Origin: a virus
Lineage: Duplodnaviria > Heunggongvirae > Uroviricota > Caudoviricetes
DNA: 21,569 nucleotides
Virus record (IMG/VR): IMGVR_UViG_3300028995_000043
Direction: 5' to 3' (one strand)
Shown: in pieces, positions 4,033 through 19,698 of the stretch
Position numbering within the stretch: the first letter of the stretch is position 1
Layout: the number at the start of each line of letters is the position of its first letter
Notes under the pieces: generated by a model
What the model saw: only the letters and a program-made list of their open reading frames with translations
Databases searched by the model: none
Told to the model about the DNA's origin: nothing
Translations under genes and position numbers: made by a program

Positions 4033-4380
4033 TTACGAATTACTGCGGCGCTGTTGCTTTTCCGCATGTACGCGTTTCACTATCTTATAAATCCATTGCA
4101 GCGTCAGATTATATTTCTTCGCTAATTCGGCGTAGTTGCGCCCATCGCACTCGCTATAGATTTGGTAGTCACGCTCCGACGCCCGTCCGGAGATCCCTTT
4201 TGGGAAATAAATGCTTTGCCCGCCCCAGTTGCGCATCATTCGGTCGGCAATGGCAAAGCCCACATTTTCCGCCGATGAACTGTCGAGATTGATGCTTTCA
4301 ATCAGAACTTGCGATGCATGAAAAGCCAGGTCGTTAATGATCTCCGGTGTCCGGACCATCTCTTTTGATTTTCGTATCAT
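4033..4380 (-). CDS. Mor/C-family transcriptional activator (phage Mu middle-operon-regulator-like)
   Basis: 115-aa product with motifs GGQSIYFPKG, IYSECDGRNYAELAKKYNLT and YKIVKR that align with the C-terminal dimerisation/HTH region of Mu Mor as recalled; GGAG Shine-Dalgarno 8 nt before the ATG. Confidence 0.8.
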   Translation of the reverse strand: MIRKSKEMVRTPEIINDLAFHASQVLIESINLDSSSAENVGFAIADRMMRNWGGQSIYFPKGISGRASERDYQIYSECDGRNYAELAKKYNLTLQWIYKIVKRVHAEKQQRRSNS

Positions 4381-4545
4381 TTTTCATCTCCATATATCTT
4401 GCATCCTGAATAAGACCCGATGCGTGTAAAACCACGGATATACGCTAAGCAGTTGTCATTACTGCTACTCAATACATTCAACAAACAAATAAACAATCAC
4501 CAGAAATATAAATTCTTAATATTAATGAACGCATAAATTCACTAA

Positions 4546-4579
4546 ATAAATATATTGTTTGCGTTATGTTTCTTGTCAA
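4546..4579 (-). promoter_or_regulatory. Putative sigma70 promoter for the Mor-like gene
   Basis: Perfect -35 TTGACA on the minus strand (plus coordinates 4574-4579), followed by an AT-rich -10-like hexamer (TATATT/AATATA) at a 17-19 bp spacing; ~160 nt upstream of the Mor-like start. Confidence 0.3.
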
Positions 4580-4600
4580 CAGGAGTATCATTTTACACGA

Positions 4601-4620
4601 TACTGTATGCACATACAGTA
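4601..4620. promoter_or_regulatory. LexA binding site (SOS box)
   Basis: tactgtatgcacatacagta matches TACTG(TA)5CAGTA at both CTGT/ACAG half-sites and both flanking TA pairs, with 3 mismatches confined to the central spacer. The box is bracketed by the 8-bp inverted repeat ttttacac (4591-4598) / gtgtaaaa (4636-4643). Confidence 0.8.
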
Positions 4621-4916
4621 TTATTTTTACCTGTAGTGTAAAAAGATCGTTTCCCTCACAGTCGCTGACTTTCTTAAACAAACTTTAAAAATCAAATAAC
4701 TACTGACTATTCCTACGATTCACCATCATCTTTTCCCTGCATAATGACGCGCTTATTCGCGAGGTCACCTTTTGCTCTTTAATTGCTGAGTGGATTTATT
4801 AGCGGGCATGTTCATTTATAGAGAATCTATTTTTTAAAGTTATTTATTAAAGCTTTTTTCATTCTTCACTGGCGGGTTCTGGCGACACTAAACGCTCACT
4901 TATCAGGAGATACCGT

Positions 4917-5204
4917 ATGAAAAAAGTCACTCTTCCCCGGCTTTCCGGTTGGCTGGTCGCTTCCGTCGCGCTGTTTGTCGTGATCGGCTGGACCTCTTCA
5001 GCACAGATCCCGGTCGTCATTTATAAACTAAGCCTGGTTTCGCTTTCCGCGGTGCTGGGATACTGGCTCGATCGCAGTTTGTTCCCATGGGCACGGCCTG
5101 ACTCTTTTAGCCCATGGAAGGAACCGCGTTGCTGCGCGGCGGCAATGATTCGCCGCGCCATCATCGTTGCCGCCGTCTGTCTTTCCGTCGCCTTAGGGCT
5201 ATAG
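4917..5204 (+). CDS. Holin-like small membrane protein (putative)
   Basis: 95-aa product with three hydrophobic helices (SGWLVASVALFVVIGW, IPVVIYKLSLVSLSAVLGYWL, AIIVAAVCLSVALGL); strong AGGAG Shine-Dalgarno; stop overlaps the start of the downstream transglycosylase gene; first gene of the lysis/tail operon. Confidence 0.5.
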   Translation: MKKVTLPRLSGWLVASVALFVVIGWTSSAQIPVVIYKLSLVSLSAVLGYWLDRSLFPWARPDSFSPWKEPRCCAAAMIRRAIIVAAVCLSVALGL

Positions 5205-5206
5205 TG

Positions 5207-5812
5207 ATGTGGCTGAAATATATCGCGTCTATGATTATTTTCGTTCTTTTCCCTCTTAACGCCTCTGAACCGCCGCGAGCCTCTCTGGCATGGCGAAACG
5301 AACTAATTCGTACCGCTCGAGAAGTCTGGGGACTGAACGCCCCAGTGGCCGACTTTGCCGGGCAATTACACCAGGAGTCCGCCTGGCAGCCAATGGTACG
5401 TTCCCCCGTTGGCGCACAAGGCATGGCGCAATTTATGCCTGCCACAGCGACATGGATAAGCCTGTTGTATCCGCAGCTACGTGAAAATAAGCCCTATAAC
5501 CCAACCTGGGCGATTCGCGCACTGGTGCAATATGACCAGCATTTGTGGAAAAACATCTCAGCGAAAAATGATTGTCAGCGTATGGCGTTTACCCTAAGCG
5601 CCTATAACGGCGGTCAGGGATGGGTTAACCGGGATAAAAAACTGGCTGCATCCAAAGGGTTAGATGCCACTAGCTGGTTTGGTCATGTCGAGCGAGTCAA
5701 CGCCGGGCGCAGCGCCACGAACTGGCGAGAAAATCGTCGCTATCCGAAGATGATCCTCTATCAACATGCCGCCCGCTACCTACTCTGGGGGCAGGCAAGC
5801 TGTCTTCATTAA
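5207..5812 (+). CDS. Lytic transglycosylase (SLT domain) endolysin with N-terminal signal/SAR segment
   Basis: Motifs QLHQESAWQP (catalytic E-S), GAQGMAQFMPATA and AYNGGQGW typical of family-1 lytic transglycosylases; hydrophobic N-terminus MWLKYIASMIIFVLFPLNA. Start chosen at ATG 5207 (GTG 5204 also in frame) rather than the ORF-track start at 5114, which overlaps the holin-like gene. Confidence 0.8.
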   Translation: MWLKYIASMIIFVLFPLNASEPPRASLAWRNELIRTAREVWGLNAPVADFAGQLHQESAWQPMVRSPVGAQGMAQFMPATATWISLLYPQLRENKPYNPTWAIRALVQYDQHLWKNISAKNDCQRMAFTLSAYNGGQGWVNRDKKLAASKGLDATSWFGHVERVNAGRSATNWRENRRYPKMILYQHAARYLLWGQASCLH

Positions 5813-5824
5813 TCAGAGGGGCCG

Positions 5825-6139
5825 ATGAAACTCAGTATCGATTTTTGGGAAGTGATCTCCCTTATGCTTTCCTTCGTTGGATTAATGTTTGCTGCCGGAA
5901 AATTGCTGTTAGCGCAAATTGAAAAAAGACTTAATGAGCGTTTTGAATCTCTGGAAAACGCGCGCCGGGAATCAGAAACAAGTTGGTCGAAACTGGAAAG
6001 AGAATTTCTCGAATTTCGTGCCGAGCTTCCGCTGCATTATGTCCGCAGAGAAGATTATCTTCGTGGCCAGGCAGTATTAGAAGCAAAGCTGGATGCCTTA
6101 TATAGCAAAATAGAGCTATTACAACGCGGTAGCTATTAA
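5825..6139 (+). CDS. Spanin-like protein (i-spanin/Rz-like: N-terminal TM plus coiled coil)
   Basis: 104 aa; N-terminal hydrophobic helix (VISLMLSFVGLMFAAG) followed by a charged, heptad-like helical region; GAGGGG Shine-Dalgarno; sits immediately after the endolysin gene. Confidence 0.45.
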   Translation: MKLSIDFWEVISLMLSFVGLMFAAGKLLLAQIEKRLNERFESLENARRESETSWSKLEREFLEFRAELPLHYVRREDYLRGQAVLEAKLDALYSKIELLQRGSY

Positions 6140-6256
6140 ATTCAATTTTTTCTCTAAAGCAGATTAAAAGATTCTCCACCTTCATTACGTCAGAATACAT
6201 TTCAACGATAACGAAGTGAGCGTTAACGAATCAGCGATAATTAAGGAACACCCTAT

Positions 6257-6712
6257 ATGGAAATTTTATCAGTAATGAATTCTGTTGTGACCAGATTACG
6301 TGAACAGAATCCCGAAATGGATGTATCTATTTCATCGGTTGATACCCATAAATATATTCCGCAGACGCAGCAAGTTACAGTGATTATTAATTATAGCGGT
6401 TCTCTATTTGCCATGCCTGAAAGCAGTGATGCTCTCGTGCAACAGCAAACGCTCCGCTTAACCGCCACCGTTATTGTTGGCAAAAATTGTGATGCGTTAA
6501 ACGCACTGGACCGCATACGCAGCGCATTGGGTGGCCTTCAGCTTCCTGATTGCGATCGTCTTCTTTGGCTTGAAAAAGAAATTAATACGGGTGAGAGCGG
6601 CGGTTTCTGCCGCTACATCCTGGAAATGGCGACCAGCTCGCTGTTTATCGCTGAACAGGAAACCACGGATCTTCCCCTACTTACGGAAGTTAATTACGAG
6701 GAAACTGAATGA
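6257..6712 (+). CDS. Hypothetical protein upstream of the sheath gene (possible tail completion/terminator role by position)
   Basis: 151-aa ORF with good AAGGAA Shine-Dalgarno, translationally coupled to the next gene (ATGA overlap); function inferred only from position in a Mu-like tail module. Confidence 0.55.
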   Translation: MEILSVMNSVVTRLREQNPEMDVSISSVDTHKYIPQTQQVTVIINYSGSLFAMPESSDALVQQQTLRLTATVIVGKNCDALNALDRIRSALGGLQLPDCDRLLWLEKEINTGESGGFCRYILEMATSSLFIAEQETTDLPLLTEVNYEETE

Positions 6713-6906
6713 AATACATCTACAACGGCCCGGCAAGCGGCGTCACCCTTGCCGACGGACAAGAAATCTTATTGTGGCCGAACAGTGAAATTGATCTGCC
6801 AGAAGACAACGAGTGGGTCATGACCATGATTGCCCGCAATCACCTGACTTCTGTCATCACTCAGGAAGAACAAAATAACGGAGAGGAAATTGTACATGGC
6901 AGCTAA
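6709..6906 (+). CDS. Small hypothetical protein conserved upstream of the sheath gene (putative)
   Basis: 65-aa ORF whose start overlaps the preceding stop and whose 3' end overlaps the sheath start; acidic C-terminus. Confidence 0.45.
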   Translation: MKYIYNGPASGVTLADGQEILLWPNSEIDLPEDNEWVMTMIARNHLTSVITQEEQNNGEEIVHGS

Positions 6907-8317
6907 TTATCTGCACGGTGTAGAAACCATTGAAATTGAAACCGGCCCGCGTCCCGTTAAAGCGGTAAAATCCGCCGTCATCGCTTTAATCGGTACGGCC
7001 CCCTGTGGTCCGGTAAATAAACCAACATTATGCCTTTCTGAAAGCGATGCTGCGCAGTTTGGCTCAACTCAGGCTAACTTTACGATCCCACAGGCGCTGA
7101 AGGCGATTTATGACCACGGTGCCGGTACGGTGGTGGTAATTAATGTGCTGGATCCGGTAAAACATGGACTGCATGTTGCCAATGAAACCATTACGTTCAA
7201 TAGTGCCGATAAAGCTAAATTAGCTCATCCGGGAGTAAGTTCAGTAATATTAAGACCAGGTACCAGTTCCACTACGTACAAAAATACATCTTACAATGTT
7301 AATGCCGCAGATGGCGTTATAACCCGTACCGGAACTGAAATCCCGGCAGGGGCGAAGGTTTACGCGACGTATACCTATGTTGATCCTACAAAGGTCACCG
7401 CAGCCGATATTATCGGTGCCGTAAATACCGCAGGCGACCGCACAGGGATGAAACTCCTTCAGGACACCTATAACCTGTATGGTTTCTACGCCAAAATCCT
7501 GCTTGCTCCCGTGTTCTGTACGCAAAAATCAGTAACTACCGAGCTGATTGCACAAGCGGAAAAACTCGGTGCGATTACCTACATTGATGCCCCGATTGGG
7601 ACGACATTCCAGCAGGTATTGGCAGGACGCAGTTCGCAAGGCGCTATCAACTTCAATACCAGCTCTGATCGTGCGCGTTTATGTTACCCACACGTCAAAG
7701 TTTACGATGGCATCACTAACCAGGAAGTTCTCGAACCGCTCTCTTCGCGCGCTGCCGGGCTACGTGCCAAAGTAGACCTCGAAAAAGGTTTCTGGTGGAG
7801 CAACTCAAACCAGGAAATTCAGGGTATTACCGGTATTGAACGTTCGCTTTCCGCAATGATTGATGATCCTCAAAGCGAAGTGAATCAGCTCAACGAAAAC
7901 GGCATTACCACTATTTTCAATAGTTACGGCTCTGGTCTGCGCTTGTGGGGCAACCGCACAGCGGCATGGCCTACCGTGACCCATATGCGTAACTTTGAAA
8001 ACGTCCGCCGGACAGGCGATGTAATTAATGAGTCAATCCGTTATTTCAGTCAGCAGTATATTGATATGCCGATTAATCAGGCGCTGATTGATGCCCTGAC
8101 CGAATCAGTAAATACCTGGGGCCGTAAGCTGATTGCCGACGGCGCACTGCTTGGCTTTGAGTGCTGGTACGATCCGGCGCGAAATTCACCGACTGAACTC
8201 AGCGCTGGGCATTTATTGCTTAGCTATAAATTCACCCCGCCGCCGCCGCTGGAACGTCTGACGTTTGAAACTGAAATTACTTCTGAATATTTAGTCTCTC
8301 TGGAGAGCAATAGCTAA
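6896..8317 (+). CDS. Contractile tail sheath protein
   Basis: N-terminus MAANYLHGVETIEIETGPRPV and C-terminus LLLSYKFTPPPPLERLTFETEITSEYL resemble P2 FI / Mu L sheath proteins as recalled. ATG at 6896 preferred over the TTG at 6890 (GGAGAGGA Shine-Dalgarno 6-8 nt upstream). Confidence 0.9.
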   Translation: MAANYLHGVETIEIETGPRPVKAVKSAVIALIGTAPCGPVNKPTLCLSESDAAQFGSTQANFTIPQALKAIYDHGAGTVVVINVLDPVKHGLHVANETITFNSADKAKLAHPGVSSVILRPGTSSTTYKNTSYNVNAADGVITRTGTEIPAGAKVYATYTYVDPTKVTAADIIGAVNTAGDRTGMKLLQDTYNLYGFYAKILLAPVFCTQKSVTTELIAQAEKLGAITYIDAPIGTTFQQVLAGRSSQGAINFNTSSDRARLCYPHVKVYDGITNQEVLEPLSSRAAGLRAKVDLEKGFWWSNSNQEIQGITGIERSLSAMIDDPQSEVNQLNENGITTIFNSYGSGLRLWGNRTAAWPTVTHMRNFENVRRTGDVINESIRYFSQQYIDMPINQALIDALTESVNTWGRKLIADGALLGFECWYDPARNSPTELSAGHLLLSYKFTPPPPLERLTFETEITSEYLVSLESNS

Positions 8318-8841
8318 TGGCTGGAAAAATTCAAATTAACCGTATTACCAACGCAAATATTTATCTCGATGGTAATAACCTTTTAGGTCGTGCAACCGAA
8401 ATTAAATTGCCGGATGTCAGTTTAATTATGCAGGAGCATAAAGCACTGGGCATGGTCGGCAAAATCGAACTCCCGGCAGGGTTCGATAAACTGGAAGGGG
8501 AAATTAAATGGAACTCCTTTTATCAGGACGTCATGCGTAAAACGGCAAACCCGTGGCAGGCGGTAGCATTACAGTGCCGCTCCAGTATTGATTGCTATAA
8601 CTCCCAGGGGAAAGCGAATCAATTAGCGTTAGTCACTCATTTGACTGTCATGTTTAAAAAGAATCCACTGGGAACATTTAAACAAAATGAAAACCCGGAA
8701 TTCAGCAGCGCCTTTGGTTGCACTTATATTAAACAAGTGGTCGATGGTGAAACGCTGCTTGAACTTGATTATATGGCGAATATTTTTCGGGTTAACGGCG
8801 TGGATCAATTAAGTACCTATCGCAATAACATCGGTGGCTAA
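8317..8841 (+). CDS. Tail tube protein
   Basis: 174-aa product immediately after the sheath gene (TAATG overlap); size and position typical of P2 FII / Mu M tube proteins. Confidence 0.8.
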   Translation: MAGKIQINRITNANIYLDGNNLLGRATEIKLPDVSLIMQEHKALGMVGKIELPAGFDKLEGEIKWNSFYQDVMRKTANPWQAVALQCRSSIDCYNSQGKANQLALVTHLTVMFKKNPLGTFKQNENPEFSSAFGCTYIKQVVDGETLLELDYMANIFRVNGVDQLSTYRNNIGG

Positions 8842-8891
8842 GTTATTCGGGGCTACGGCCCCGAACTTCGCAAAATAAATAAGGATACAAA

Positions 8892-9209
8892 ATGAAAGAG
8901 CATTATATCTTACAGTTCCCGTTTACTTCAGCGGCGGGAGACGTAATTAACACTCTGCAATTACGTCGCCTGAAAGTAAAAGATATGCGCAACGCGCGCC
9001 GGATCAGCGAAAAGCCAGAAGAGTGGGATGAACCGCTAATGGCGGCAATGACCGGACTGGTGCCAGAAGATTTAGCTGAAATGGATTTGCTGGATTACCA
9101 GGCATTGCAGAAACGATTTCAATCCATGCTTACCGTGGTTACAGAATCCTCCCCTGCTATGGCAGGCAATGGCGTTACTGGCGAGATGGTTTCGCTTTCC
9201 GCCCAGTGA
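8892..9209 (+). CDS. Tail assembly chaperone (P2 gpE-like position)
   Basis: 105-aa acidic protein between tube and tape-measure genes; AAGGA Shine-Dalgarno; an overlapping out-of-frame extension follows (next feature). Confidence 0.65.
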   Translation: MKEHYILQFPFTSAAGDVINTLQLRRLKVKDMRNARRISEKPEEWDEPLMAAMTGLVPEDLAEMDLLDYQALQKRFQSMLTVVTESSPAMAGNGVTGEMVSLSAQ

Positions 9210-9297
9210 GATAGACGCCCTTACCGTCGATGACTTTAGCAACTGGCTGGATGAAGCCAGCGCTCAAATAAAGATCGAATATGACTCGCAGACCTGA
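9076..9297 (+). other. +1-frame ORF overlapping the 3' end of the chaperone gene: candidate programmed-frameshift extension (E+E'-like)
   Basis: The frame offset +1 from the chaperone is open from 9076 to a TGA at 9295-9297 and encodes ...RFPPSEIDALTVDDFSNWLDEASAQIKIEYDSQT. CUU-U (9195-9198) and GUU-U (9189-9192) are possible slip sites. A hairpin (actcgcaga...tctgcgagt, 9284-9307) follows. Confidence 0.35.
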
Positions 9298-9397
9298 TGT
9301 CTGCGAGTCCTTTAAAGCCCGCCAGGTTTATTTCTTCCCAGCCCATTTTTCAGAAAACTAACCAGCGGGCCATCACCAATCTATAAGAGAAACAATT

Positions 9398-11749
9398 TTG
9401 GCCAACGATATTATTACCCAGCTTCAGGCGCGTAATGAGACGTTGACGCAGGCAATAGCCCGTTACGGCTCACTCAACGCCAGAACTTTGTTAGCTCTCT
9501 CTTCTCAGCAAGCGACAGTAATCAAACTAACGCAGCAACTTGCCGATTCTGCTCTCCACCTGGAGGAAAATAGCCGCAGCCGCGCTAATCTGATGGAGAA
9601 AACCCACACATTTGCCGGGCAATTTAGCAAAGTATTCAATGTTGAAGCCCCCGATTGGAAGTTGCCGTATGAGTTCCAGGACAACATGGTCAATATGGCG
9701 ACCAAAGGTGGGATGAATGATACAACCCGCGAGACGCTCAGCCTTAATCTGCGCGACTGGAGCATGGATTTTAACCAGCATCAGACCACCTTACAGAACG
9801 CAGCCCAAACGCTGATCGAAGGCAATTTGTCGTCGATACAGGATCTCAACCGTTATATGCCGGAGATCGCCAAAGCTGCCACCGCCACGCGCGAAAGTAC
9901 TGAAACATGGGCGAATGCCGCGCTCGCAACCCATGATCGACTGAATATTGCGCCAGAAAATTTCCACGCCGCGCAAAACATGATGTACGGCATTAGCAAA
10001 AGCGGTGGGCCTGCCGTTGCCGAGCAAACGCAGTGGATAGACAAATTTGCAGGTAAAACCGGCGCTCAGGGTCTGGAAGGTATGACTGAACTGACTGCCG
10101 CCATGCAGATCGCCATGAAAAACGGGGCCAGCGCCAGTGCGGCGGCTGAGAATTTTGACCACTTTCTGCAAACCACCTTTTCGAAAAAAACCGATAGCTG
10201 GTTCGCCAGCCAGGGCGTCGATTTGCAAGGCTCTCTGCTTGAACATCAGCAAAACGGTATGAGTGTTAGCGAAGCCATGACTCATATCGTGCAAATGCAG
10301 CTTGAGAAGATGAATCCGGCGATCCTCGACACCTTCAAACGCACTATGCAGATTGAAGATTTATCTGCTCGCAGCACTGCGCTGCAATCGATGGTGGCGC
10401 AATTTAATCTGGGCGAAATGTTCGGCGATGCGCAAACGGTGGAATTCCTGGCACCTATGCTGGCGAATATGGAGGAATATCGCCAGTTAAAAGCCTCTGC
10501 CATGCAAACTACCAGCAAGAATCTGATTAACGCTGACTTTTCTGCGCAAATGGCCTCGCCCATTGAACAGACTAAAGCGTTACAACTGGCGTTAAATGAT
10601 TTATGGCTCAGCATTGGCTTGCAGCTTATGCCGGCGATTGGCGAGCTGGCACAAAGCCTTGCGCCGGTTATTCGCCAGTTCAGTGCCTGGCTACGCGAAC
10701 ATCCGGCGCTGGTGCAAAACATTGCGAAAATCGTCGGGGCGATTTGGCTGTTTAACGGTGCGCTTAATGTTTTAAAGCTGGGCGCGAACCTCATCGCCTC
10801 GCCGTTTATTCGTCTGGTCGATATCTTCCTGAAAGTCAGGGCAAGTCTGGCCCTCGGCGGCGCGGCAAGTAAAGTGCTATCGGCGGTTAAGTCATTGGGT
10901 GGCGGCGCAAAATGGCTAACGCAACTGCTTGGTCGTGGCCTGATCGGAGCATTGAAACTGTTTGGTCGAACCGTTCTCTCGCTAGGCCGGGTGTTATTGA
11001 TGAATCCCATTGGTCTGGTCATCACTGCGATTGCGGGCGCGGCTTATCTGATTTATCGCAACTGGGAACCTATCTCCAGGTTCTTTTCGACCATCTGGCA
11101 ACGTATCACCACGGCCTTTGACGGCGGCATTGCAGGAATTTGTCGGTTGATTCTCGACTGGTCACCGCTGGAGTTGTTCTATAGCGCCTTTTCCGATGTG
11201 ATGAATTGGTTTGGTGTTGAGATGCCTGCGAGTTTTAGCGAGTTCGGCAGCAATATACTGGGTAGCCTGGCCGACGGCATAATGAATGCTTTCCCCGCAC
11301 TGAAAGGCATTATTGATCAGGTCAAAAACGCCATGCCAGACTGGCTAAAAGCCACAATGGGTATCAGCACAGAAGCATCGGCTGCGGCTGTTACAGGCAC
11401 GGCTAATACCGCATCAGTCTCCCCCGCGACCGTTGTTCCAGGCGTTGCCGGTGCGATTTTAACGCTGCCGGTGGGCAAACAACTCGCGCCATCCGGCAAA
11501 ACGGCTACGCCGTCATCGGCAAAACCCGCGTCGGCCTCTTTACCTGGTAAATCCGTAACCAAACCGGCGACGCTACCCTCCCGTTCCCCGGGAAAAGTCC
11601 AGGTGAATTTTTCGCCACAAATTACCGTGCAGGGTAACGGACAAAACACCACTAAAGAGATTCAGAACGTGTTGACGATGAGTAAACGCGAACTGGAAAG
11701 AATGATTAACGATGTAATGGCGCAGCAGCAGCGCCGGGGGTATGCCTGA
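9398..11749 (+). CDS. Tail tape measure protein
   Basis: 783 aa, helical N-terminal half, central hydrophobic/Gly-Ala-rich segment (IVGAIWLFNGALNVLKLGANLIASPF...GLVITAIAGAAYLIY) and position after the chaperone are typical of tape measure proteins. Apparent TTG start at 9398 with AAGAGA upstream; start uncertain. Confidence 0.8.
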   Translation: MANDIITQLQARNETLTQAIARYGSLNARTLLALSSQQATVIKLTQQLADSALHLEENSRSRANLMEKTHTFAGQFSKVFNVEAPDWKLPYEFQDNMVNMATKGGMNDTTRETLSLNLRDWSMDFNQHQTTLQNAAQTLIEGNLSSIQDLNRYMPEIAKAATATRESTETWANAALATHDRLNIAPENFHAAQNMMYGISKSGGPAVAEQTQWIDKFAGKTGAQGLEGMTELTAAMQIAMKNGASASAAAENFDHFLQTTFSKKTDSWFASQGVDLQGSLLEHQQNGMSVSEAMTHIVQMQLEKMNPAILDTFKRTMQIEDLSARSTALQSMVAQFNLGEMFGDAQTVEFLAPMLANMEEYRQLKASAMQTTSKNLINADFSAQMASPIEQTKALQLALNDLWLSIGLQLMPAIGELAQSLAPVIRQFSAWLREHPALVQNIAKIVGAIWLFNGALNVLKLGANLIASPFIRLVDIFLKVRASLALGGAASKVLSAVKSLGGGAKWLTQLLGRGLIGALKLFGRTVLSLGRVLLMNPIGLVITAIAGAAYLIYRNWEPISRFFSTIWQRITTAFDGGIAGICRLILDWSPLELFYSAFSDVMNWFGVEMPASFSEFGSNILGSLADGIMNAFPALKGIIDQVKNAMPDWLKATMGISTEASAAAVTGTANTASVSPATVVPGVAGAILTLPVGKQLAPSGKTATPSSAKPASASLPGKSVTKPATLPSRSPGKVQVNFSPQITVQGNGQNTTKEIQNVLTMSKRELERMINDVMAQQQRRGYA

Positions 11750-12702
11750 TGTATGCCGTTTTAGGAGAGATTGAATTTAAAGTTGTCACATTCTGGGACG
11801 GCTTTAAAAGCACAATGGGCGTGGATTACGCCACACATGCCCGTATAGAAGGCAAACCCGGCGTGCAGTTTATTGGCGATAAGCTGGATATGCTGGCGCT
11901 GGAATTTTCCCTGCACAGCCAGTTTTGCCAACCCACAACAGAGCTGAATCGACTGCGTGAAGCCATGCTTGCTCACAAAGCAATGGCGCTGGTGTTTGGC
12001 AACGGAGATTATCGCGGCTGGTTTGTAATTACAGAGTTAACCGCCACTCACCAGCACACCGATCCCTGGGGCAATGTCATTGCCCAAAGCGGAACAATGT
12101 CGCTCCAGGAGTATACCGGCGATCCGAAAAACCCACTGCTGCCCCCGGCAATTACCACCCAGGAGCCTAATATCGAGGAAAAGGCGAGCGATTTTCCGAA
12201 TAAGGTGGAGTCCTGGTTGTATCAGATATTGAACGCCATTGAAGAAGGTATGCGCAAAGCCAAAGAGATGCTCGATGAACTGGCGCAAACCATTGAAGAT
12301 ATTAAAAAAACAGTGGCAAAAGTGAAAGCACTGATTAAAGAGGCCAAAGCGTTAAAAGAAAAGTGTGAAAAGATAATTACGTCGTTGAAAAAGACTATCG
12401 ACGCCATCGAAACCCTGTTTAAACAGCCAATGGATCTGCAAATGCTGGCAGGACTCCCAAAAGCGTTGTCGGCTCAGATTAAAGCTTTACTGGGTAACAT
12501 GCCAGGTATACGGGACTGCGCCAATGACGCCAGTACGCTGGTTGACCATGCTCAGACACTTTTCGACGACATTGCCAGCAACATCGCCGAAGCGACGTTT
12601 GATAAAGCCGCAACGTTGGTTGATCAGGCACGAACAACGGTACAACAAACCACTCCCGCAGTGAGCCAGCTTGCTGCCGCGACCATTACGAGGAGCTGGT
12701 AA
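11749..12702 (+). CDS. Tail protein, P2 gpU / Mu N (DNA-circularisation) family N-terminal domain with C-terminal coiled-coil extension
   Basis: N-terminal ~130 aa (MYAVLGEIEFKV...LREAM...GWFVITEL) align with P2 gpU as recalled; the C-terminal ~190 aa are K/E-rich coiled coil; start overlaps the tape-measure stop (ATGA-type coupling). Confidence 0.7.
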   Translation: MYAVLGEIEFKVVTFWDGFKSTMGVDYATHARIEGKPGVQFIGDKLDMLALEFSLHSQFCQPTTELNRLREAMLAHKAMALVFGNGDYRGWFVITELTATHQHTDPWGNVIAQSGTMSLQEYTGDPKNPLLPPAITTQEPNIEEKASDFPNKVESWLYQILNAIEEGMRKAKEMLDELAQTIEDIKKTVAKVKALIKEAKALKEKCEKIITSLKKTIDAIETLFKQPMDLQMLAGLPKALSAQIKALLGNMPGIRDCANDASTLVDHAQTLFDDIASNIAEATFDKAATLVDQARTTVQQTTPAVSQLAAATITRSW

Positions 12703-12911
12703 TGCGATACCTTGAACATATCACCACCGATGGCGAACGCTGGGATAACCTGGCCTGGCATTACTACGGCGATGCACTGGCTTATGAACGCATTATCGCA
12801 GCCAATCCACATGTCGCCATTTATCCGGTACTGCCTTCCGGTATTCAGCTCATCATTCCGGTCATTTCCGTCAATAAAACCTTATCGGAGATCCCACCAT
12901 GGCTGAGATAA
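12702..12911 (+). CDS. Tail protein X (P2 gpX-like)
   Basis: 69 aa; W..YYG...AANP...LP.G...P pattern matches P2 gpX as recalled. Confidence 0.7.
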   Translation: MRYLEHITTDGERWDNLAWHYYGDALAYERIIAANPHVAIYPVLPSGIQLIIPVISVNKTLSEIPPWLR

Positions 12912-13939
12912 GCGTAACTGGCGGCGTCTTTGCAACACTCACGCCCATTTTTACCCTCTGGTATGGGCATAAAGATATCACTTATGACATCACGCCTTAT
13001 GTCACCAGCATCAGTTACCAGGACAGTATTAAAAACGAGTCGGATACCATCGCGATTACACTGGATGACACCGATGGACGCTGGATAAAAGAGTGGTATC
13101 CCGGCAAAGGCGATACGCTGGCGCTGCATATGGGTTATCAGGGGGAAAAGCTGCTCGATTGTGGTCAGTATATTATTGATAAAATTGATATTTCATCGCC
13201 ACCTTCTACGGTAAATATTGATGGCATCGCCACTTCCGTCAATCAGGCGCTACGCACGCGTAACAGCCAGGGCTTTGAAGAGACGACGCTTTCGGCTATC
13301 GCCAGCCGTATCGCGCAAACGCACGGTCTGAAACTGGTGGGCAAAATCGAGCCGCTCACCATCGACCGGGTAACGCAGTATGGTGAAACCGATGTTGGAT
13401 TTCTCAAACGTCTGGCCAGTGAATATGGTTATGCCGTAAAAGTGACGACAAAAGAGCTGATTTTTTCACATTTACCCACGCTGCGCTGCCTGGCACCGGT
13501 AAAAACGATCGACCGCAAAGACGTTTCGCATTTCACCTTCAAAGATACCATTAACCGTATCTACAAAAACGCCACCGTACAGCATCAAAATAGTAAGAAA
13601 AAAGAACTGGTTATCTACACCCACGACAGCCAGCAAAAACCGTCTGCCCGTGGAGTCGGCACCAGTGCCGACACGCTAAAACTGAACAGTCGGGCGACGG
13701 ACATTGGCGCAGCACAGGCAAAGGCCAACGCTGCACTCGACAGCCACAACGAATATCAGCAAACCGGAACGCTCACAATGATGGGCTGCCCGGAACTGAC
13801 GGCGGGCAATAAAATTGAACTGACCGATTTTGGCGTGCTTTCCGGTCAGTGGCTGATTGATAAATCTACTCACAGTTTTGTGCGCAGCGGCTATACCACT
13901 GAAATCGACGTGTCACGCGGGCCAGCGACCAGCCAGTAA
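12899..13939 (+). CDS. Baseplate hub / late control protein D family (P2 gpD-like, Mu P-like)
   Basis: 346 aa; size, position after gpX and overall similarity to gpD-family proteins; GGAG Shine-Dalgarno; overlaps the gpX 3' end. Confidence 0.8.
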   Translation: MAEISVTGGVFATLTPIFTLWYGHKDITYDITPYVTSISYQDSIKNESDTIAITLDDTDGRWIKEWYPGKGDTLALHMGYQGEKLLDCGQYIIDKIDISSPPSTVNIDGIATSVNQALRTRNSQGFEETTLSAIASRIAQTHGLKLVGKIEPLTIDRVTQYGETDVGFLKRLASEYGYAVKVTTKELIFSHLPTLRCLAPVKTIDRKDVSHFTFKDTINRIYKNATVQHQNSKKKELVIYTHDSQQKPSARGVGTSADTLKLNSRATDIGAAQAKANAALDSHNEYQQTGTLTMMGCPELTAGNKIELTDFGVLSGQWLIDKSTHSFVRSGYTTEIDVSRGPATSQ

Positions 13940-13948
13940 GGAGGAAAT

Positions 13949-14650
13949 ATGAAAGGAGTAACCCGGCAAACGGGGATTATCAGCGATATTGACGAAACCA
14001 GCGTTCGGGTGCGAGTCACGCTTCCAGAGTGTGACAATCTGAAGAGCAACTGGCTTGCGGTACTTCAACGCAATTCCCAGGACAATAAAGACTACTGGCT
14101 ACCGGACATGGGAGAGCAGGTGGAGGTTCTGCTGGATGATAACGGTGAAGATGGCGTGGTGCTGGGCGCAGTATATTCAACGGTAGATACCGCGCCAGTA
14201 GCATCGCGCGACAAACGCTATGTCCAGTTTTCCGATGGCGCAGCGTTTGAATATGACCGCAGCACCCACCAGCTTACGATTAACGGTGGTATCGAAAAAA
14301 TCGTGATTGAGGTTATCGACCGTACCAGCCTGATATCGCCCAACGTTGAGGTTAAAGCCCAACACGTCACCGTGACTTCCGACACTGTTGATGTGAAAGC
14401 CACCGACGTCAGCATTGAAGCCAGTAAGGTCGATGTTAAAGCGATGGCTGTAACGGTAGACGCACCGCTCAGTACCTTTACCGGCAACGTCACGGTGATG
14501 AAAAAACTCACCTGGCTTGGTGGGATGGCAGGAAGTGGAGGCATCGGTAACACCGCCACGATAACCGGCAATGTCAACGTGATCGGCAACGTTCAGGCCA
14601 GCGGCGCATTGCAGGACAGCGGTGGCAACTCCAACCACCATTCACACTGA
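13949..14650 (+). CDS. Baseplate central spike (P2 gpV-like)
   Basis: N-terminal region aligns with P2 gpV (GEQV...DGA..EY...T..LT..G); C-terminal repetitive V/T-rich beta-helix-like segment ending in a His cluster (NHHSH), as at the gpV apex; perfect AAGGAGG Shine-Dalgarno. Confidence 0.85.
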   Translation: MKGVTRQTGIISDIDETSVRVRVTLPECDNLKSNWLAVLQRNSQDNKDYWLPDMGEQVEVLLDDNGEDGVVLGAVYSTVDTAPVASRDKRYVQFSDGAAFEYDRSTHQLTINGGIEKIVIEVIDRTSLISPNVEVKAQHVTVTSDTVDVKATDVSIEASKVDVKAMAVTVDAPLSTFTGNVTVMKKLTWLGGMAGSGGIGNTATITGNVNVIGNVQASGALQDSGGNSNHHSH

Positions 14651-14655
14651 CTTTT

Positions 14656-14686
14656 AACCCGCCTGATAGCGGGTTTTCTCTTTTTA
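14656..14686 (+). terminator. Intrinsic terminator-like hairpin inside the tail operon (between spike and gpW genes)
   Basis: 7-bp GC-rich stem aacccgc/gcgggtt with loop ctgata, followed by ttctcttttt; begins 6 nt after the spike gene stop. Confidence 0.5.
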
Positions 14687-14748
14687 ATCAATCAGTTTTC
14701 TAAATCGCTTTAATATCTCCACAGCCCGTTCAGGGCGAAAATACCCTC

Positions 14749-15108
14749 ATGAACACAAAAACACGCCCCTCAACGCTGCACTGGCAACCGGCCTTGCAGC
14801 GGCCTGAAGAATACGTCTGCGGACTGGATGATATTCACCAGGCAATACACATCATTCTGCGTACACCGCGCGGCAGTGATCCCCACAGACCGCTGTTTGG
14901 CAGCAATTTGTGGCACTACATCGATTATCCCATCGAGCGGGCGATCCCGCATGTGGTACGGGAGTCGGTAGAGGCCATCCGCCAGTGGGAACCGCGCTGC
15001 CGGTTGCTGAAGGTGACACCTGTAATCGACGGTGAACATCTGACGTTACGTGTGCAATGGCGCGCCGCTGACGGCGTAATCAACTCAACGGAGGTGTTAT
15101 GGCGATAG
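14749..15108 (+). CDS. Baseplate wedge protein (P2 gpW / T4 gp25 family)
   Basis: 119 aa; ILRTPRGS...LFGS and WEPR motifs shared with P2 gpW as recalled. Confidence 0.8.
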   Translation: MNTKTRPSTLHWQPALQRPEEYVCGLDDIHQAIHIILRTPRGSDPHRPLFGSNLWHYIDYPIERAIPHVVRESVEAIRQWEPRCRLLKVTPVIDGEHLTLRVQWRAADGVINSTEVLWR

Positions 15109-16214
15109 CCGAACCCAATTTTATTGAACGCGATCCTGCGCAAATTACCAGCGAGATGATTGCGCAATACGAAGATGCCAGCGGCAAAAAGCTCTACCCG
15201 GCACAGGCCGAGCGGTTGCTGATTGACCTTTTTGCCTATCGTGAAAACCTTGTACGCATCGCCATTCAGGAAGCGGCGAAACAGAACCTGGTCGCGTATT
15301 CCCGCGCGCCAATGCTGGATTATTTAGGGGAGCTGGTGGGCGTTCATCGTTTGCCTGCGCAGTCAGCAAAAACGACGTTGCAGTTTTCGGTTGTCAGTGC
15401 GTATACCAGCAATATCCTGATTCCCCAGGGGACGCGGGCCAGTGCCTCTGATAGCGTGATGTTCGCCACCGATGAAGATGTTCTGCTCCCGGCCAGGAGT
15501 TTGCATATCGCCGTTCCTGCCACCAGCCTCGCAGCAGGTGAACAGGGTAACGGCTGGCAGCCTGCACAAATTAGCGCTCTGGTCGACAGGATTGGTCATT
15601 ATGACATCAACGTAATCAACCTGACTGCGTCAACGGGCGGCTGCGGTGAAGAGAGCGATGACGCATTGCGCCAGCGTATCCAACTGGCACCAGAAAGCTT
15701 TAGTAATGCGGGCAGCTATGGTGCCTACCGCTTTCATACGCTTTCCGTAAGCCAGTCGATTATTGACGTTGCAGTACTGGGGCCGGACGAGGGATTGCCA
15801 GAAGGCTGCGTGGAGATCTACCCGCTAACCCTGAACGGACTGCCGGGAATAGAACTGCTCGCGCAAATCGAACAGGAGGTTAGCAAGGAGAAAAAACGTC
15901 CGCTGACCGACAAAGTGAGTGCGAAATGCGCTCTTCGAGTGCCGTATGAGATCCGTGCGCAGCTAACGCTGTTTACCACCGCCGATCAGGAGACAACTCT
16001 GGCTGCGGCGCGTAAAGCGATTAGCCTCTGGACGCAACAGCGGCAGAAACATCTGGGGCAGGACATTGTGCCAAACCAGATAATCAAAGTGTTACAGGTC
16101 GATGGCGTCTATGACGTTGTGCTGAACTTGCCTACAAAACGTATTTTGCAGGCGCATGAATGGGCGGAATGCACTGCAATAGACGTAACGATCGCCGGAG
16201 TTAGCGATGGATAA
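15099..16214 (+). CDS. Baseplate protein J (P2 gpJ-like)
   Basis: 371 aa; position and size typical of baseplate J; overlaps the gpW 3' end and the gpI 5' end (coupled). Confidence 0.8.
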   Translation: MAIAEPNFIERDPAQITSEMIAQYEDASGKKLYPAQAERLLIDLFAYRENLVRIAIQEAAKQNLVAYSRAPMLDYLGELVGVHRLPAQSAKTTLQFSVVSAYTSNILIPQGTRASASDSVMFATDEDVLLPARSLHIAVPATSLAAGEQGNGWQPAQISALVDRIGHYDINVINLTASTGGCGEESDDALRQRIQLAPESFSNAGSYGAYRFHTLSVSQSIIDVAVLGPDEGLPEGCVEIYPLTLNGLPGIELLAQIEQEVSKEKKRPLTDKVSAKCALRVPYEIRAQLTLFTTADQETTLAAARKAISLWTQQRQKHLGQDIVPNQIIKVLQVDGVYDVVLNLPTKRILQAHEWAECTAIDVTIAGVSDG

Positions 16215-16839
16215 ATTGCTGCCACCGCCGCCGCTTGCCAGCGATGAGCGTTTTTCGATTCTGGCAAATATCGCCGCCGAGCGTTTTGCCCAACTCGATC
16301 TTACGGCGTTGATGGTTTATCTGGTCGACCTGGTTGATGCTTCGGCATTACCAGCCCTTGCAGAACAATTTCACGTTCAGGGGCTGGAAGGTTGGTTATT
16401 TACCACCGATGAACGGGAGAAGCGCGAGCTAATTAAGCAAGCCATTGAGCTGCATAAATATAAAGGAACGATTTGGGCGGTACGGCGGGTGCTGGAAATA
16501 CTCTCATTACCAGGAACTATTTCAGAATGGTTTGAATATGGGGGGAAGGCTTATTTTTTTAAGGTTGATATAGAGCTGGTGGATAAAGGCATGGATGAAA
16601 ACCTTTTCAATAATCTGGTAGAACTCATTCATGAATATAAAAACACACGTTCAAAACTGGAAGCATTAATTGTCTGGATCATTAACCAAAGTGCTATTCC
16701 TGTTATTGGTTGTGCACTTTATGGTGGTGAACTGACGTCGGTTTTACCTTTCCAGATACGGGAAGTACAGCAAAACACATCAATCTATTACGGAACAGGG
16801 CAATGGAGCCTTGAAATTACATCTATTTACCCGGAGTAA
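16207..16839 (+). CDS. Tail protein I (P2 gpI-like)
   Basis: 210 aa; HKYKGTIWAVRRVLEIL matches the HxxKGT..A.RRV.E motif of P2 gpI as recalled. Confidence 0.8.
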   Translation: MDKLLPPPPLASDERFSILANIAAERFAQLDLTALMVYLVDLVDASALPALAEQFHVQGLEGWLFTTDEREKRELIKQAIELHKYKGTIWAVRRVLEILSLPGTISEWFEYGGKAYFFKVDIELVDKGMDENLFNNLVELIHEYKNTRSKLEALIVWIINQSAIPVIGCALYGGELTSVLPFQIREVQQNTSIYYGTGQWSLEITSIYPE

Positions 16840-16841
16840 TT

Positions 16842-18611: not shown

Positions 18612-18615
18612 ACAG

Positions 18616-19221
18616 ATGACACGATATGCGTATTACCATCCGGTAACCTTTGAGGTTATTGACTGGATAGATGCAGCCTCTTTTACTGTGGAATTACCTG
18701 ATTCAGTAATTCCTGTAGATGATGAGCAGTGGCAGTTAAAAGATAAACCATGCTGGATATGTCTTGACCCATTCAAAATTATCACTACGCCACCTCCGGA
18801 TAACTTTTATATCTTAGAGGATGATAAATGGGTGTATAACAAGACGTTATTTACCGTTGCACTGGAGAATACCAAGGCTCAGGTTACACAGGAAATAAAA
18901 AATCGACGTGATGAAATAACAGTAGATTGCATCATCATCAACAACCATCACTTCCACAGTGATACAAATAGCCGTATCCAACAGCTTTCACTCACTAAAA
19001 TGGGAGCGGAGAAAAAAATCCCTCCAGGTTTAATGTGGAAAACTAAAAATAACGGTCTGATCGAGTTAACCAACGAAATCGCCGCCCAGTTTGAATCGGT
19101 CACCATGGATCACGATATGCGCCTGTTCGCCAATGCCCAGCACCATATCGCGGCGGTGGAAGCACTGGACGATATTCAGGCGGTGCTCGACTACGATTAT
19201 TCAACAGGCTGGCAACCATGA
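18616..19221 (+). CDS. Tail fibre assembly protein (Tfa / P2 gpG / Mu U-like)
   Basis: 201-aa ORF immediately after the fibre gene; size and position typical of tail fibre assembly chaperones. Confidence 0.7.
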   Translation: MTRYAYYHPVTFEVIDWIDAASFTVELPDSVIPVDDEQWQLKDKPCWICLDPFKIITTPPPDNFYILEDDKWVYNKTLFTVALENTKAQVTQEIKNRRDEITVDCIIINNHHFHSDTNSRIQQLSLTKMGAEKKIPPGLMWKTKNNGLIELTNEIAAQFESVTMDHDMRLFANAQHHIAAVEALDDIQAVLDYDYSTGWQP

Positions 19222-19677: not shown

Positions 19678-19698
19678 CGCCGGGCTTTATGCCCGGCG
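19678..19698. terminator. Hairpin between convergent tail operon and NTase operon (putative bidirectional terminator)
   Basis: 8-bp GC-rich stem cgccgggc/gcccggcg with loop tttat, overlapping the NTase stop codon; modest U-richness downstream on the minus strand. Confidence 0.4.

What the first reader, a model, noticed from the sequence alone, without database searches (positions are those of the whole stretch)
9076..9297. Out-of-frame extension of the tail chaperone gene consistent with a programmed frameshift, apparently in the +1 direction
Contractile and long-tailed phages conserve a frameshift-fused chaperone pair between the tube and tape-measure genes. Here the reading frame offset +1 from the chaperone gene is open for 222 nt across its 3' end and encodes a plausible peptide (IDALTVDDFSNWLDEASAQIKIEYDSQT), while the -1 frame hits a stop immediately. 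Most characterised cases are -1 shifts, so a +1 (or -2) geometry would be less usual. A hairpin at 9284-9307 follows.
Basis: partly seen in the sequence, partly recalled or inferred. Interest (0 to 1): 0.4.

Follow-up and report, generated by a model that had tools for sequence, protein, structure and literature searches.

The report
Tail chaperone +1 frameshift at UUU_C
The tail-assembly chaperone gene of this E. coli phage-tail cluster almost certainly makes a second, longer protein when ribosomes slip one base forward at a conserved UUU_C; this is a rarely seen forward variant of a well-known phage trick, and current genome annotation misses it.

Summary
The +1 frame is open over 9076-9297 and runs 88 nt past the chaperone's stop codon. 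The -1 frame gives no extension. An open frame of 222 nt is not unusual in itself.

The comparative evidence is what makes it real:
- The +1 peptide is the P2 E' (GpE) domain.
- 47 of 67 related genomic loci, in about 10 bacterial clades, carry this domain in the +1 frame. So do 79 of 80 viral contigs.
- Purifying selection switches from frame 0 to frame +1 inside the annotated gene.
- No conserved start codon exists for the +1 ORF.

The shift must occur between -8 and +24 nt of a conserved Phe codon. All 126 loci with the +1 arrangement have an in-frame TTT followed by C there, including GC-rich hosts that avoid TTT. In the window this is CGA_UUU_CAA, with UUU_C at 9117-9120.

The best explanation is P-site tRNA-Phe re-pairing from UUU to UUC, a +1 shift with the same core motif as influenza PA-X. 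It would give a 134-aa chaperone-E' fusion beside the 105-aa chaperone. No stimulatory RNA structure was found.

Sister clades of the same protein family use -1 shifts at G_GGA_AAG or T_TTT_TTG. The hairpin at 9283-9309 is real but lies 165 nt downstream and is not part of the signal. All of this is computational; the fusion protein has not been observed.

The parts
8317..8841 (+). Tail tube gene (context: the upstream neighbour that defines the chaperone position)
   Evidence: Pfam Phage_tube, E = 3.7e-56. RefSeq annotation: 'phage major tail tube protein'.
8892..9209 (+). Tail assembly chaperone ORF in frame 0 (105 aa). This is the short product, the counterpart of P2 E and lambda G.
   Evidence: Pfam Phage_TAC_7, E = 3.2e-18, residues 6-80. 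RefSeq WP_000658215.1, 'phage tail assembly protein'. Frame-0 pN/pS is 0.37 upstream of the slip site, but frame 0 shows no constraint over its last ~30 codons.
9114..9122 (+). Proposed +1 frameshift signal CGA_UUU_CAA. The P-site codon is UUU (9117-9119) and the next base is C (9120). tRNA-Phe re-pairs from UUU to UUC, and decoding resumes at AAU (9121-9123).
   Evidence: An in-frame TTT followed by C is present once, at the homologous Phe, in all 47 genomic loci and all 79 viral loci that have the +1 arrangement. The preceding codon is CGA in 35 of 48 unique contexts, although CGA makes up only 9% of Arg codons in flanking genes. Stop codons in relatives confine the shift to -8..+24 nt around this site.
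9121..9297 (+). +1-frame extension: 58 codons plus the stop UGA at 9295-9297. It is translated only after the shift. The predicted fusion is residues 1-76 plus 58 aa, 134 aa in total, the counterpart of P2 E+E'.
   Evidence: Frame +1 pN/pS is 0.65 (+3..+44), 0.24 (+45..+74) and 0.29 (+75..+170), against 0.93, 2.27 and 1.62 for frame 0. A +1-frame Trp codon at +19..+21 is invariant.
9169..9297 (+). GpE-like (P2 E') domain within the +1 frame. Some RefSeq genomes annotate it as a separate 42-aa 'GpE family phage tail protein'.
   Evidence: Pfam Phage_P2_GpE, E = 0.0027, 17.6 bits, below the 23-bit cut-off for this sequence alone. 9 of 14 conceptual fusions from the family match, best E = 5e-10. 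Separate CDS WP_015674804.1 in strain Z226-1.
9283..9309 (+). Conserved hairpin with the +1-frame stop codon in its loop. It is not part of the frameshift signal and may be a leaky terminator or mRNA-stability element ahead of the tape-measure gene.
   Evidence: dG -22.7 kcal/mol, z = -5.5. 97% of cells are paired in 17 distinct relatives, with one G-C/A-U compensatory pair. It does not meet the terminator scan's T-run rule. It is absent or different in more distant clades.
9398..11749 (+). Tape measure protein gene (context: the downstream neighbour)
   Evidence: Pfam PhageMin_Tail, E = 3.6e-11. RefSeq annotation: 'phage tail tape measure protein'.

Best explanation
A minority of ribosomes translating the chaperone gene shift +1 at CGA_UUU_C (UUU at 9117-9119, C at 9120). 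Peptidyl-tRNA-Phe (anticodon GAA) pairs with UUU through a G:U wobble. It re-pairs one base downstream with UUC, a full Watson-Crick match, and decoding continues at AAU (9121) in the +1 frame to the UGA at 9295-9297. Two proteins result that share residues 1-76, the Phage_TAC_7 chaperone domain. One is the 105-aa frame-0 product, with a variable and unconstrained tail. The other is a 134-aa fusion carrying the conserved GpE (P2 E') domain. By analogy with lambda G/GT and P2 E/E+E', the shared domain would coat the tape-measure protein. The extension, made at a low fixed ratio, would recruit tube subunits. What is shown here: the two-frame architecture, its conservation, the switch in selection, the confinement of the junction to about 30 nt, and the invariance of UUU_C. 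What is inferred: the slip mechanism, its efficiency and the assembly role.
For: 1. Position and domains: the gene sits between tube and tape-measure genes; the N-terminal part is Phage_TAC_7 and the +1 part is GpE-like.
2. Conservation of the +1 geometry: 47 of 67 genomic loci, from Enterobacterales, Pandoraea, Verminephrobacter, Pseudomonas, Burkholderia, Neisseria and Kingella, and 79 of 80 IMG/VR loci used as a test set.
3. Selection switches frame inside the annotated ORF. Entropy periodicity changes phase. At +45..+74, pN/pS is 0.24 for frame +1 and 2.27 for frame 0.
4. Junction bounds: +1-frame stops end at -9 in four loci, L045, L047, L062 and L074 (Pandoraea, Pseudomonas japonica, Verminephrobacter). 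Frame-0 stops begin at +24 in Kingella L078 and at +27 in L108/L109.
5. Inside that window, an in-frame TTT plus C is invariant in 126 of 126 loci. This holds even where TTT is only 6-30% of Phe codons in flanking genes.
6. A sister-clade locus that uses -1 (L049) has TTT_A at the homologous Phe.
7. No conserved start codon or Shine-Dalgarno motif exists in the +1 frame. L074 and L076 have no ATG, GTG or TTG there at all.
8. The same protein family uses canonical -1 heptamers elsewhere: G_GGA_AAG in 18 of 18 Pasteurellaceae/Moraxella loci and T_TTT_TTG-type sites in P2-like phages. The fusion is therefore the conserved end product.
9. Precedent for the mechanism: influenza PA-X shifts +1 by P-site slippage on UUU_C, without an evident stimulator, at about 1% (PMC3498833; PMC5009743). 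BcepMu carries the identical UCC_UUU_CGC.
Against: - There is no experimental evidence: no junction peptide and no reporter data.
- In-frame TTT_C occurs 7 times in this window's tail genes, so the tetramer alone does not define a programmed site.
- No stimulatory element was found. RNAalifold on 20 sequences gives -2.5 kcal/mol with no covarying pair, and there is no upstream SD-like motif or A-site stop.
- The A-site codon here (CAA, mostly CAG in relatives) is not obviously slow.
- Part of the TTT conservation could reflect phylogenetic relatedness within clades.
- Constraint on the +1 frame in the first 14 codons after the site is weak (pN/pS 0.65), so the exact junction rests mainly on the stop-codon bounds and the motif's invariance.
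- The Pfam GpE match of the window sequence alone is below the curated cut-off.
Confidence: 0.75

Rival explanations
1. A programmed shift into the +1 frame does occur, but at a different place or by a different step. One candidate is a -2 slip of tRNA-Pro on the C-run UCC_UCC_CCU (9147-9155). Another is a +1 slip at a GUU_U site near the frame-0 stop.
For: In the window, CCU (9153-9155) could re-pair 2 nt back on CCC. A rare natural variant (P0001) is fused in frame exactly at this C-run. Mu proves that -2 shifts occur in tail chaperones. KP12-like relatives end frame 0 with GTT_TAG.
Against: The C-run is absent from the 95%-identical E. coli allele (TCC GCC ACT) and from all other clades. 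Frame-0 stops at +24..+29 in L078, L108 and L109 lie upstream of the homologous position. The +1-frame Trp at +19..+21 is invariant, and the LLARWF segment is under +1-frame selection upstream of the GTT site.
Confidence: 0.1
2. The +1 ORF is a separate small gene, translated from its own start (ATG 9169). This is how RefSeq annotates it in some genomes ('GpE family phage tail protein', 42 aa), and no frameshift would be involved.
For: An ATG lies at 9169, at the start of the Pfam GpE match. PGAP annotates it as a separate CDS in strain Z226-1.
Against: No SD-like motif precedes 9169. The ATG is confined to the closest clade. L074 and L076 have no possible start codon in the +1 frame, and the BcepMu-like enteric clade has none at a conserved column. 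Selection on the +1 frame starts upstream of 9169, with the invariant Trp at 9136-9138. In sister clades the same domain is reached through canonical -1 heptamers, that is, as a fusion.
Confidence: 0.07
3. The arrangement is decay: a frameshift mutation in a defective prophage, with the +1 peptide a relic that is no longer made.
For: The cluster has no head, replication or integration genes in the window. Rare variants with indels or deletions in this region exist in databases.
Against: The same frame offset and the same junction motif recur in about 10 clades and in intact BcepMu-type phages. The +1 frame is under purifying selection (pN/pS 0.24-0.29). All five E. coli and Salmonella alleles inspected keep both frames intact.
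Confidence: 0.04
4. RNA polymerase slippage, rather than the ribosome, produces a minority of mRNAs with one base missing.
For: Transcriptional slippage is a known route to fused products in bacteria and phages (review PMC5009743).
Against: It needs long homopolymer runs. The longest run in the permitted window is T3 or A3.
Confidence: 0.02

Closest known systems
Bacteriophage P2 E / E+E' (FETUD operon), -1 programmed frameshift
   Same: The protein family is the same on both sides of the junction (Phage_TAC_7 plus Phage_P2_GpE). The position between tube (FII-like) and tape-measure (T-like) genes is the same. The junction falls at the C-terminal end of the chaperone domain, within a few codons of the homologous place.
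   Different: P2-type phages shift -1 on T_TTT_TTG or G_TTT_TTT_G (FLC5, Mana). Here the -1 frame is closed, the extension is in the +1 frame and there is no heptamer. The frame-0 tail after the site is longer: 29 codons, against about 6-14 in the two P2-like phages examined.
Bacteriophage Mu gp41 / gp41-frameshift product, -2 programmed frameshift (Xu, Hendrix & Duda 2004, PMID 15469818)
   Same: It is a tail chaperone of a contractile-tailed phage whose extension lies in the +1/-2 frame. The efficiency is low, about 2.2% (PMC3498833).
   Different: Mu slips on CGG_GGG_CGA, where GGG can re-pair 2 nt back. The window has no such repeat at the conserved junction. Mu's extension did not align with the GpE-like tail by eye; no formal comparison was run.
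Influenza A virus PA-X +1 frameshift at UCC_UUU_CGU, and 'PA-X-like' sites in fijiviruses, CBPV/LSV and amalgaviruses
   Same: The slippery core is UUU_C, with P-site tRNA-Phe moving to the better-matched UUC. No evident RNA stimulator is present and a low efficiency is expected (PMC3498833; PMC5009743). BcepMu relatives carry UCC_UUU_CGC, and 12 of 48 contexts have a CGN A-site codon.
   Different: PA-X is translated by eukaryotic ribosomes from a viral RNA. In the window the flanking codons are CGA (E site) and CAA (A site), not UCC and CGU. The product is an assembly chaperone, not a host shut-off nuclease.
Lambda gpG / gpGT
   Same: The same functional logic is presumed: two proteins in a fixed ratio from one start, encoded just before the tape-measure gene and absent from the finished tail (PMC5009743).
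   Different: Lambda shifts -1 on G_GGA_AAG and no sequence similarity is detectable. The Pasteurellaceae/Moraxella clade of the present family uses this very heptamer.
E. coli prfB-type +1 frameshift (CUU_UGA with upstream SD-like element)
   Same: It is a +1 P-site slip onto a U-rich codon in a bacterial ribosome.
   Different: prfB depends on an A-site stop codon and a Shine-Dalgarno-like stimulator 3 nt upstream. Neither is present here.

Membership tests
Tail assembly chaperone pair with programmed frameshift (lambda G/GT class, Xu et al. 2004) | Gene located between the major tail/tube gene and the tape-measure gene | tested here: met
   Tube 8317-8841, chaperone 8892-9209, TMP 9398-11749.
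Tail assembly chaperone pair with programmed frameshift (lambda G/GT class, Xu et al. 2004) | A second ORF overlaps the 3' end in another frame, has no translation start of its own, and is conserved in homologues | tested here: met
   +1 frame open over 9076-9297. Conserved in 47/67 and 79/80 loci. No conserved start or SD. +1-frame pN/pS 0.24-0.29.
Tail assembly chaperone pair with programmed frameshift (lambda G/GT class, Xu et al. 2004) | A slippery sequence in the overlap on which tRNA can re-pair in the new frame | tested here: met
   UUU_C at 9117-9120, invariant in 126/126 loci with the +1 arrangement. UUU to UUC re-pairing is an established +1 mechanism (PMC3498833).
Tail assembly chaperone pair with programmed frameshift (lambda G/GT class, Xu et al. 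2004) | Both the short and the fused protein are made, in a fixed ratio, and both are needed for tail assembly | not testable with these tools
   This needs protein detection and genetics.
P2 E / E+E' protein family | N-terminal Phage_TAC_7 domain (PF10109) | tested here: met
   E = 3.2e-18, 66 bits against a cut-off of 25. 14 of 14 family fusions match.
P2 E / E+E' protein family | C-terminal Phage_P2_GpE domain (PF06528) encoded in the alternative frame | tested here: inconclusive
   The window sequence alone scores 17.6 bits, below the 23-bit cut-off (E = 0.0027). 9 of 14 conceptual fusions of the family match, best E = 5e-10. RefSeq names the ORF 'GpE family'. Homology is convincing at family level and sub-threshold for this sequence alone.
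P2 E / E+E' protein family | -1 shift on a T_TTT_TTG-type heptamer | tested here: not met
   The -1 frame ends 5 nt after the frame-0 stop, and there is no heptamer in the overlap.
Mu-type -2 frameshift | A P-site codon that can re-pair 2 nt upstream (G_GGG_G run) at the conserved junction | tested here: not met
   Mu has CGG_GGG_CGA. The window junction AAA_CGA_UUU_CAA offers no -2 re-pairing. The only -2-capable run (CCCC, 9150-9153) is not conserved.
PA-X-like UUU_C +1 frameshift sites | In-frame UUU followed by C at the 5' end of a conserved +1 ORF | tested here: met
PA-X-like UUU_C +1 frameshift sites | Preferred A-site CGN codon and E-site UCC | tested here: not met
   The window has E-site CGA and A-site CAA. 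CGN A-site codons occur in 12 of 48 contexts, and UCC at the E site only in BcepMu-type Burkholderia loci.
PA-X-like UUU_C +1 frameshift sites | Junction peptide showing +1, not -2 | not testable with these tools
   This needs mass spectrometry.
prfB-type +1 frameshift | A-site stop codon and an SD-like stimulator upstream | tested here: not met
   The A-site codon is CAA. The upstream sequence is GCATTGCAGAAACGA.

The most novel reading that the evidence does not exclude
CGA_UUU_C (more generally NNN_UUU_C) may be a widespread, stimulator-free +1 recoding signal in bacteria. It would be used by a large clade of P2-E-family tail chaperones in BcepMu-type phages and in tailocin-like clusters of E. 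coli and Salmonella; the Pectobacterium relatives are probably carotovoricin, which I did not verify. That would make it a prokaryotic counterpart of the influenza PA-X site. It would also mean one protein family has switched repeatedly between -1 (T_TTT_TTG, G_GGA_AAG) and +1 (UUU_C) solutions to make the same fusion. The rare CGA codon is conserved in the E site, which suggests an E-site contribution that has not been described.
Probability: 0.45. Interest if true: 0.6.

Novelty: new variant of a known kind. Interest (0 to 1): 0.5.

Why it matters
- Annotation: RefSeq either omits the extension or lists it as a free 42-aa 'GpE family' protein. BcepMu's GenBank record pairs different ORFs. 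The KS10 paper reported no slip site for this type of chaperone (PMC2628397). A defined motif would let the fusion be annotated in hundreds of prophages and tailocin clusters.
- Recoding biology: this would be a natural bacterial use of the UUU_C +1 slip, whose use outside eukaryotic viruses was posed as an open question (PMC3498833). It comes with a built-in comparison, because sister clades reach the same fusion by -1 heptamers. The conserved rare CGA in the E site gives a directly testable context effect.
- Engineering: R-type tailocins are being re-targeted as antibacterials, and correct chaperone stoichiometry matters for yield.

Tried and rejected
1. -2 slip on the CCCC run (9150-9153). 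It is attractive in the window, but absent from the 95%-identical allele and from all other clades.
2. Downstream stimulatory RNA structure. RNAalifold on 20 sequences (0..+99) gave -2.5 kcal/mol and no covarying pair.
3. Its stem begins about 165 nt 3' of the site and it is confined to the closest clade.
4. prfB-like SD element or A-site stop: none.
5. Independent initiation of the +1 ORF: no conserved start or SD.
6. Natural in-frame fusions as a guide to the junction. The protein search found only rare singletons made by different indels or deletions (P0001, P0003, P0004, P0005, P0026; also L044 and L132). They show the fusion can arise but do not locate the slip site.
7. NCBIfam and PDB sequence searches with the conceptual fusions found nothing.
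9. Literature. No open-access paper combined UUU_C, frameshifting and phage tails other than the general review and the PA-X paper. Schwartz & Curran 1997 (UUU-pyrimidine sites in E. coli) could not be retrieved, and Fu & Parker 1994 (argI) appeared only as an entry in the review's reference list and was not read. Their content (UUU-Y is +1 shift-prone in E. coli) is cited from memory only.
10. Terminator scan: the hairpin does not meet the T-run criterion.

Full report
**What the window is.** The window is E. coli chromosome, 100% identical to strain A10. It holds pgi and lysC, followed by a phage-tail gene cluster:
- a Mor-type activator, a holin and a transglycosylase;
- sheath (6890-8317) and tube (8317-8841);
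- a 105-aa chaperone (8892-9209) and the tape-measure gene (9398-11749);
- gpU-, X-, D-, V-, W-, J- and I-like genes, then fibre genes.

No head, replication or integration genes are present. The cluster occurs in 200 of 5,426 complete E. coli genomes. Homologues of its sheath, tube and chaperone genes map to STM4212-STM4214 in Salmonella.

**The observation.** One search confirms that the +1 frame is open over exactly 9076-9297 and extends 88 nt beyond the frame-0 stop. The -1 frame is open over 9080-9214 and gives no extension. An open alternative frame of this length is not remarkable in itself, because similar ones span the stops of lysC (210 nt) and the gp37-like gene (288 nt) in this window. 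The case rests on other evidence.

**What the two reading frames encode.** Frame 0 is a Phage_TAC_7 chaperone (E = 3e-18). From 9169 onward, the +1 peptide matches Pfam Phage_P2_GpE, the E' part of P2 E+E'. The match is below threshold for this sequence alone (17.6 bits against 23). Conceptual fusions from 14 diverse relatives all carry TAC_7, and 9 of them match GpE, with a best E of 5e-10. RefSeq annotates the +1 ORF in some genomes as a separate 42-aa 'GpE family phage tail protein' and omits it in others.

**Conservation of the geometry.** A scan of one genome per species with a chaperone alignment gave 67 loci. An HMM of the GpE-like tail, run on the three forward frames, placed the tail as follows:

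| Frame of the GpE-like tail | Loci | Taxa or locus |
|---|---|---|
| +1 | 47 | Enterobacterales, Pandoraea, Verminephrobacter, Pseudomonas, Burkholderia, Neisseria, Kingella |
| -1 | 18 | Pasteurellaceae, Moraxella |
| in frame | 1 | L044 |
| not found | 1 | L066 |

An independent scan of IMG/VR gave 80 loci, of which 79 have the +1 arrangement and one is a deletion fusion. Five E. coli and Salmonella alleles at 81-100% identity keep both frames intact.

**Which frame is under selection.** I aligned 36 unique enterobacterial sequences without gaps on the conserved Phe codon.
- Upstream, variability peaks at frame-0 third positions. From about +45 it peaks at +1-frame third positions.
- Nei-Gojobori counts show the same switch:

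| Segment (nt from the Phe codon) | pN/pS frame 0 | pN/pS frame +1 |
|---|---|---|
| upstream | 0.37 | 1.03 |
| +3..+44 | 0.93 | 0.65 |
| +45..+74 (still inside the annotated chaperone ORF) | 2.27 | 0.24 |
| after +75 | 1.62 | 0.29 |

- A +1-frame Trp codon at +19..+21 is invariant.

The last ~30 codons of the annotated gene are therefore not constrained as frame-0 protein, and the +1 frame is. The frame-0 stop also moves between +24 and +99 in different relatives.

**Where the shift occurs.** In L045, L047, L062 and L074 a +1-frame stop ends at -9. In Kingella L078 the frame-0 stop begins at +24, and in L108/L109 it begins at +27. If the mechanism is shared, the shift lies between -8 and +24.
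- Within that stretch, every one of the 47 plus 79 loci has exactly one in-frame TTT followed by C, at the homologous Phe. The residue contexts are KRF|Q, SF|R, VF|R, WF|R, TF|R and RF|L.
- The codon is TTT even in loci where only 6-30% of Phe codons in flanking genes are TTT.
- L049, a member of the -1 clade, has TTT_A at the homologous Phe.
- In the window the site is CGA_UUU_CAA at 9114-9122.
- The preceding Arg codon is CGA in 35 of 48 unique contexts, although CGA is only 9% of Arg codons in neighbouring genes. This hints at an E-site contribution.

**Mechanism.** tRNA-Phe (anticodon GAA) pairs better with UUC than with UUU, and a +1 slip from UUU to UUC in the P site is established for influenza PA-X (UCC_UUU_CGU, about 1%; PMC3498833). 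The recoding review notes that no stimulatory signals are evident for PA-X (PMC5009743). BcepMu-type Burkholderia loci carry UCC_UUU_CGC.
- From memory, not retrieved: UUU-pyrimidine sites are also +1 shift-prone in E. coli (Fu & Parker 1994; Schwartz & Curran 1997).
- I found no conserved RNA structure 3' of the site, no SD-like element and no slow A-site codon.
- A low, unstimulated efficiency would suit a chaperone pair. Lambda G:GT is about 30:1, and the Mu shift is about 2%.
- A -2 event is unlikely, because nothing at the junction can re-pair 2 nt back.
- The predicted fusion is residues 1-76 plus 58 residues, 134 aa in total.
- Caveat: in-frame TTT_C occurs seven times in this window's tail genes. 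The tetramer alone is not sufficient evidence; its invariance at the frame junction is.

**Rivals.** Independent initiation at ATG 9169 is contradicted by several results. There is no SD, no conserved start exists (two loci have no possible start at all), and +1-frame selection begins upstream of 9169. Decay is contradicted by the conservation and by purifying selection. Transcriptional slippage lacks a homopolymer run. A slip on the window's CCCC run is not conserved.

**The same fusion by other routes.** The 18 Pasteurellaceae and Moraxella loci all carry G_GGA_AAG, the lambda heptamer, a few codons downstream of the homologous Phe. P2-like phages FLC5 and Mana use T_TTT_TTG-type sites and are annotated with a joined CDS. 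Mu uses a verified -2 shift on CGG_GGG_CGA. One protein family therefore shows at least three slip solutions, and the fusion itself is the conserved product.

**The hairpin.** The stem at 9283-9309 is strong. It is conserved in the closest clade, with one compensatory pair, and the +1-frame stop lies in its loop. It begins about 165 nt 3' of the slip site, and more distant clades have a different hairpin or none. It fails the T-run rule for terminators, although relatives have T-rich tails. It is best viewed as a separate feature, possibly an attenuator ahead of the tape-measure gene.

**Novelty.** Frameshifted tail chaperones are textbook, and +1 and -2 cases are known. What appears undescribed, within the literature I could search, is that a large clade of the P2-E family uses the +1 frame with an invariant UUU_C. 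Existing annotations miss it. I rate it a new variant of a known kind. It is of moderate interest, and it is entirely computational so far.

Noticed in passing
window 4033-19673: This is a tail-only cluster next to lysC: Mor-type activator, holin, transglycosylase, sheath, tube, chaperone, TMP, baseplate and fibre genes, with no head, replication or integrase genes in the window. It occurs in 200 of 5,426 complete E. coli genomes. Homologues of its sheath, tube and chaperone genes map to Salmonella STM4212-4214. Its chaperone is ~50% identical to those of Pectobacterium loci that are probably the carotovoricin cluster (this identity was not checked). It looks like an R-type tailocin or a domesticated tail module.
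   Followed up: partly
window 9283-9309: An 11-bp hairpin (dG -22.7, z = -5.5) holds the +1-frame stop codon UGA in its loop. In 17 distinct close relatives, 97% of cells are paired, with one G-C/A-U compensatory pair. Several relatives have T-rich 3' tails. It may be a leaky terminator or attenuator between the chaperone and tape-measure genes, and it is unrelated to the frameshift signal.
   Followed up: partly
window 9114-9116 and homologous codon in L012-L043, L081-L160: The Arg codon just before the slip codon is almost always the rare CGA (35 of 48 unique genomic contexts; nearly all IMG/VR contexts) and never CGT or CGC. CGA is only 9% of Arg codons in flanking genes. This suggests selection on the E-site codon or tRNA (inosine:A wobble).
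   Followed up: partly
L046-L075 (18 loci, Pasteurellaceae and Moraxella): In these relatives the GpE-like tail is in the -1 frame, and every locus has the heptamer G_GGA_AAG in the overlap. This is the same slippery sequence as lambda G/GT.
   Followed up: yes
L008 (BcepMu, AY539836) 855-1616: The GenBank record treats gp42/gp43 as the frameshift pair. The family-level evidence instead joins gp41 (TAC_7) to gp42 (GpE-like, +1 frame) at UCC_UUU_CGC (locus position 1074). Whether gp43 is a real product was not examined.
   Followed up: partly
L044 (Apirhabdus apintestini) 1420-1899; L132; proteins P0001, P0003, P0004, P0005, P0026: These are rare variants in which the chaperone and GpE parts are fused in one frame by a 1-nt indel or by deletions at different positions. 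P0001 is fused at the CCCC run that corresponds to window 9150-9153. They may be real mutants or assembly errors. If real, they would make only the long form.
   Followed up: partly
window 9121-9168 versus 9120-9206: After the slip site, the frame-0 tail of the short product (29 residues here) has no detectable amino-acid constraint. Its length varies from about 8 to 33 residues among relatives, because the frame-0 stop moves.
   Followed up: yes
window 19687-21542 (- strand): Just beyond the fibre genes lie a nucleotidyltransferase-domain gene and a slipin-family gene on the opposite strand. They could be cargo or defence genes of the element, or simply flanking chromosome. This was not examined.
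   Followed up: no
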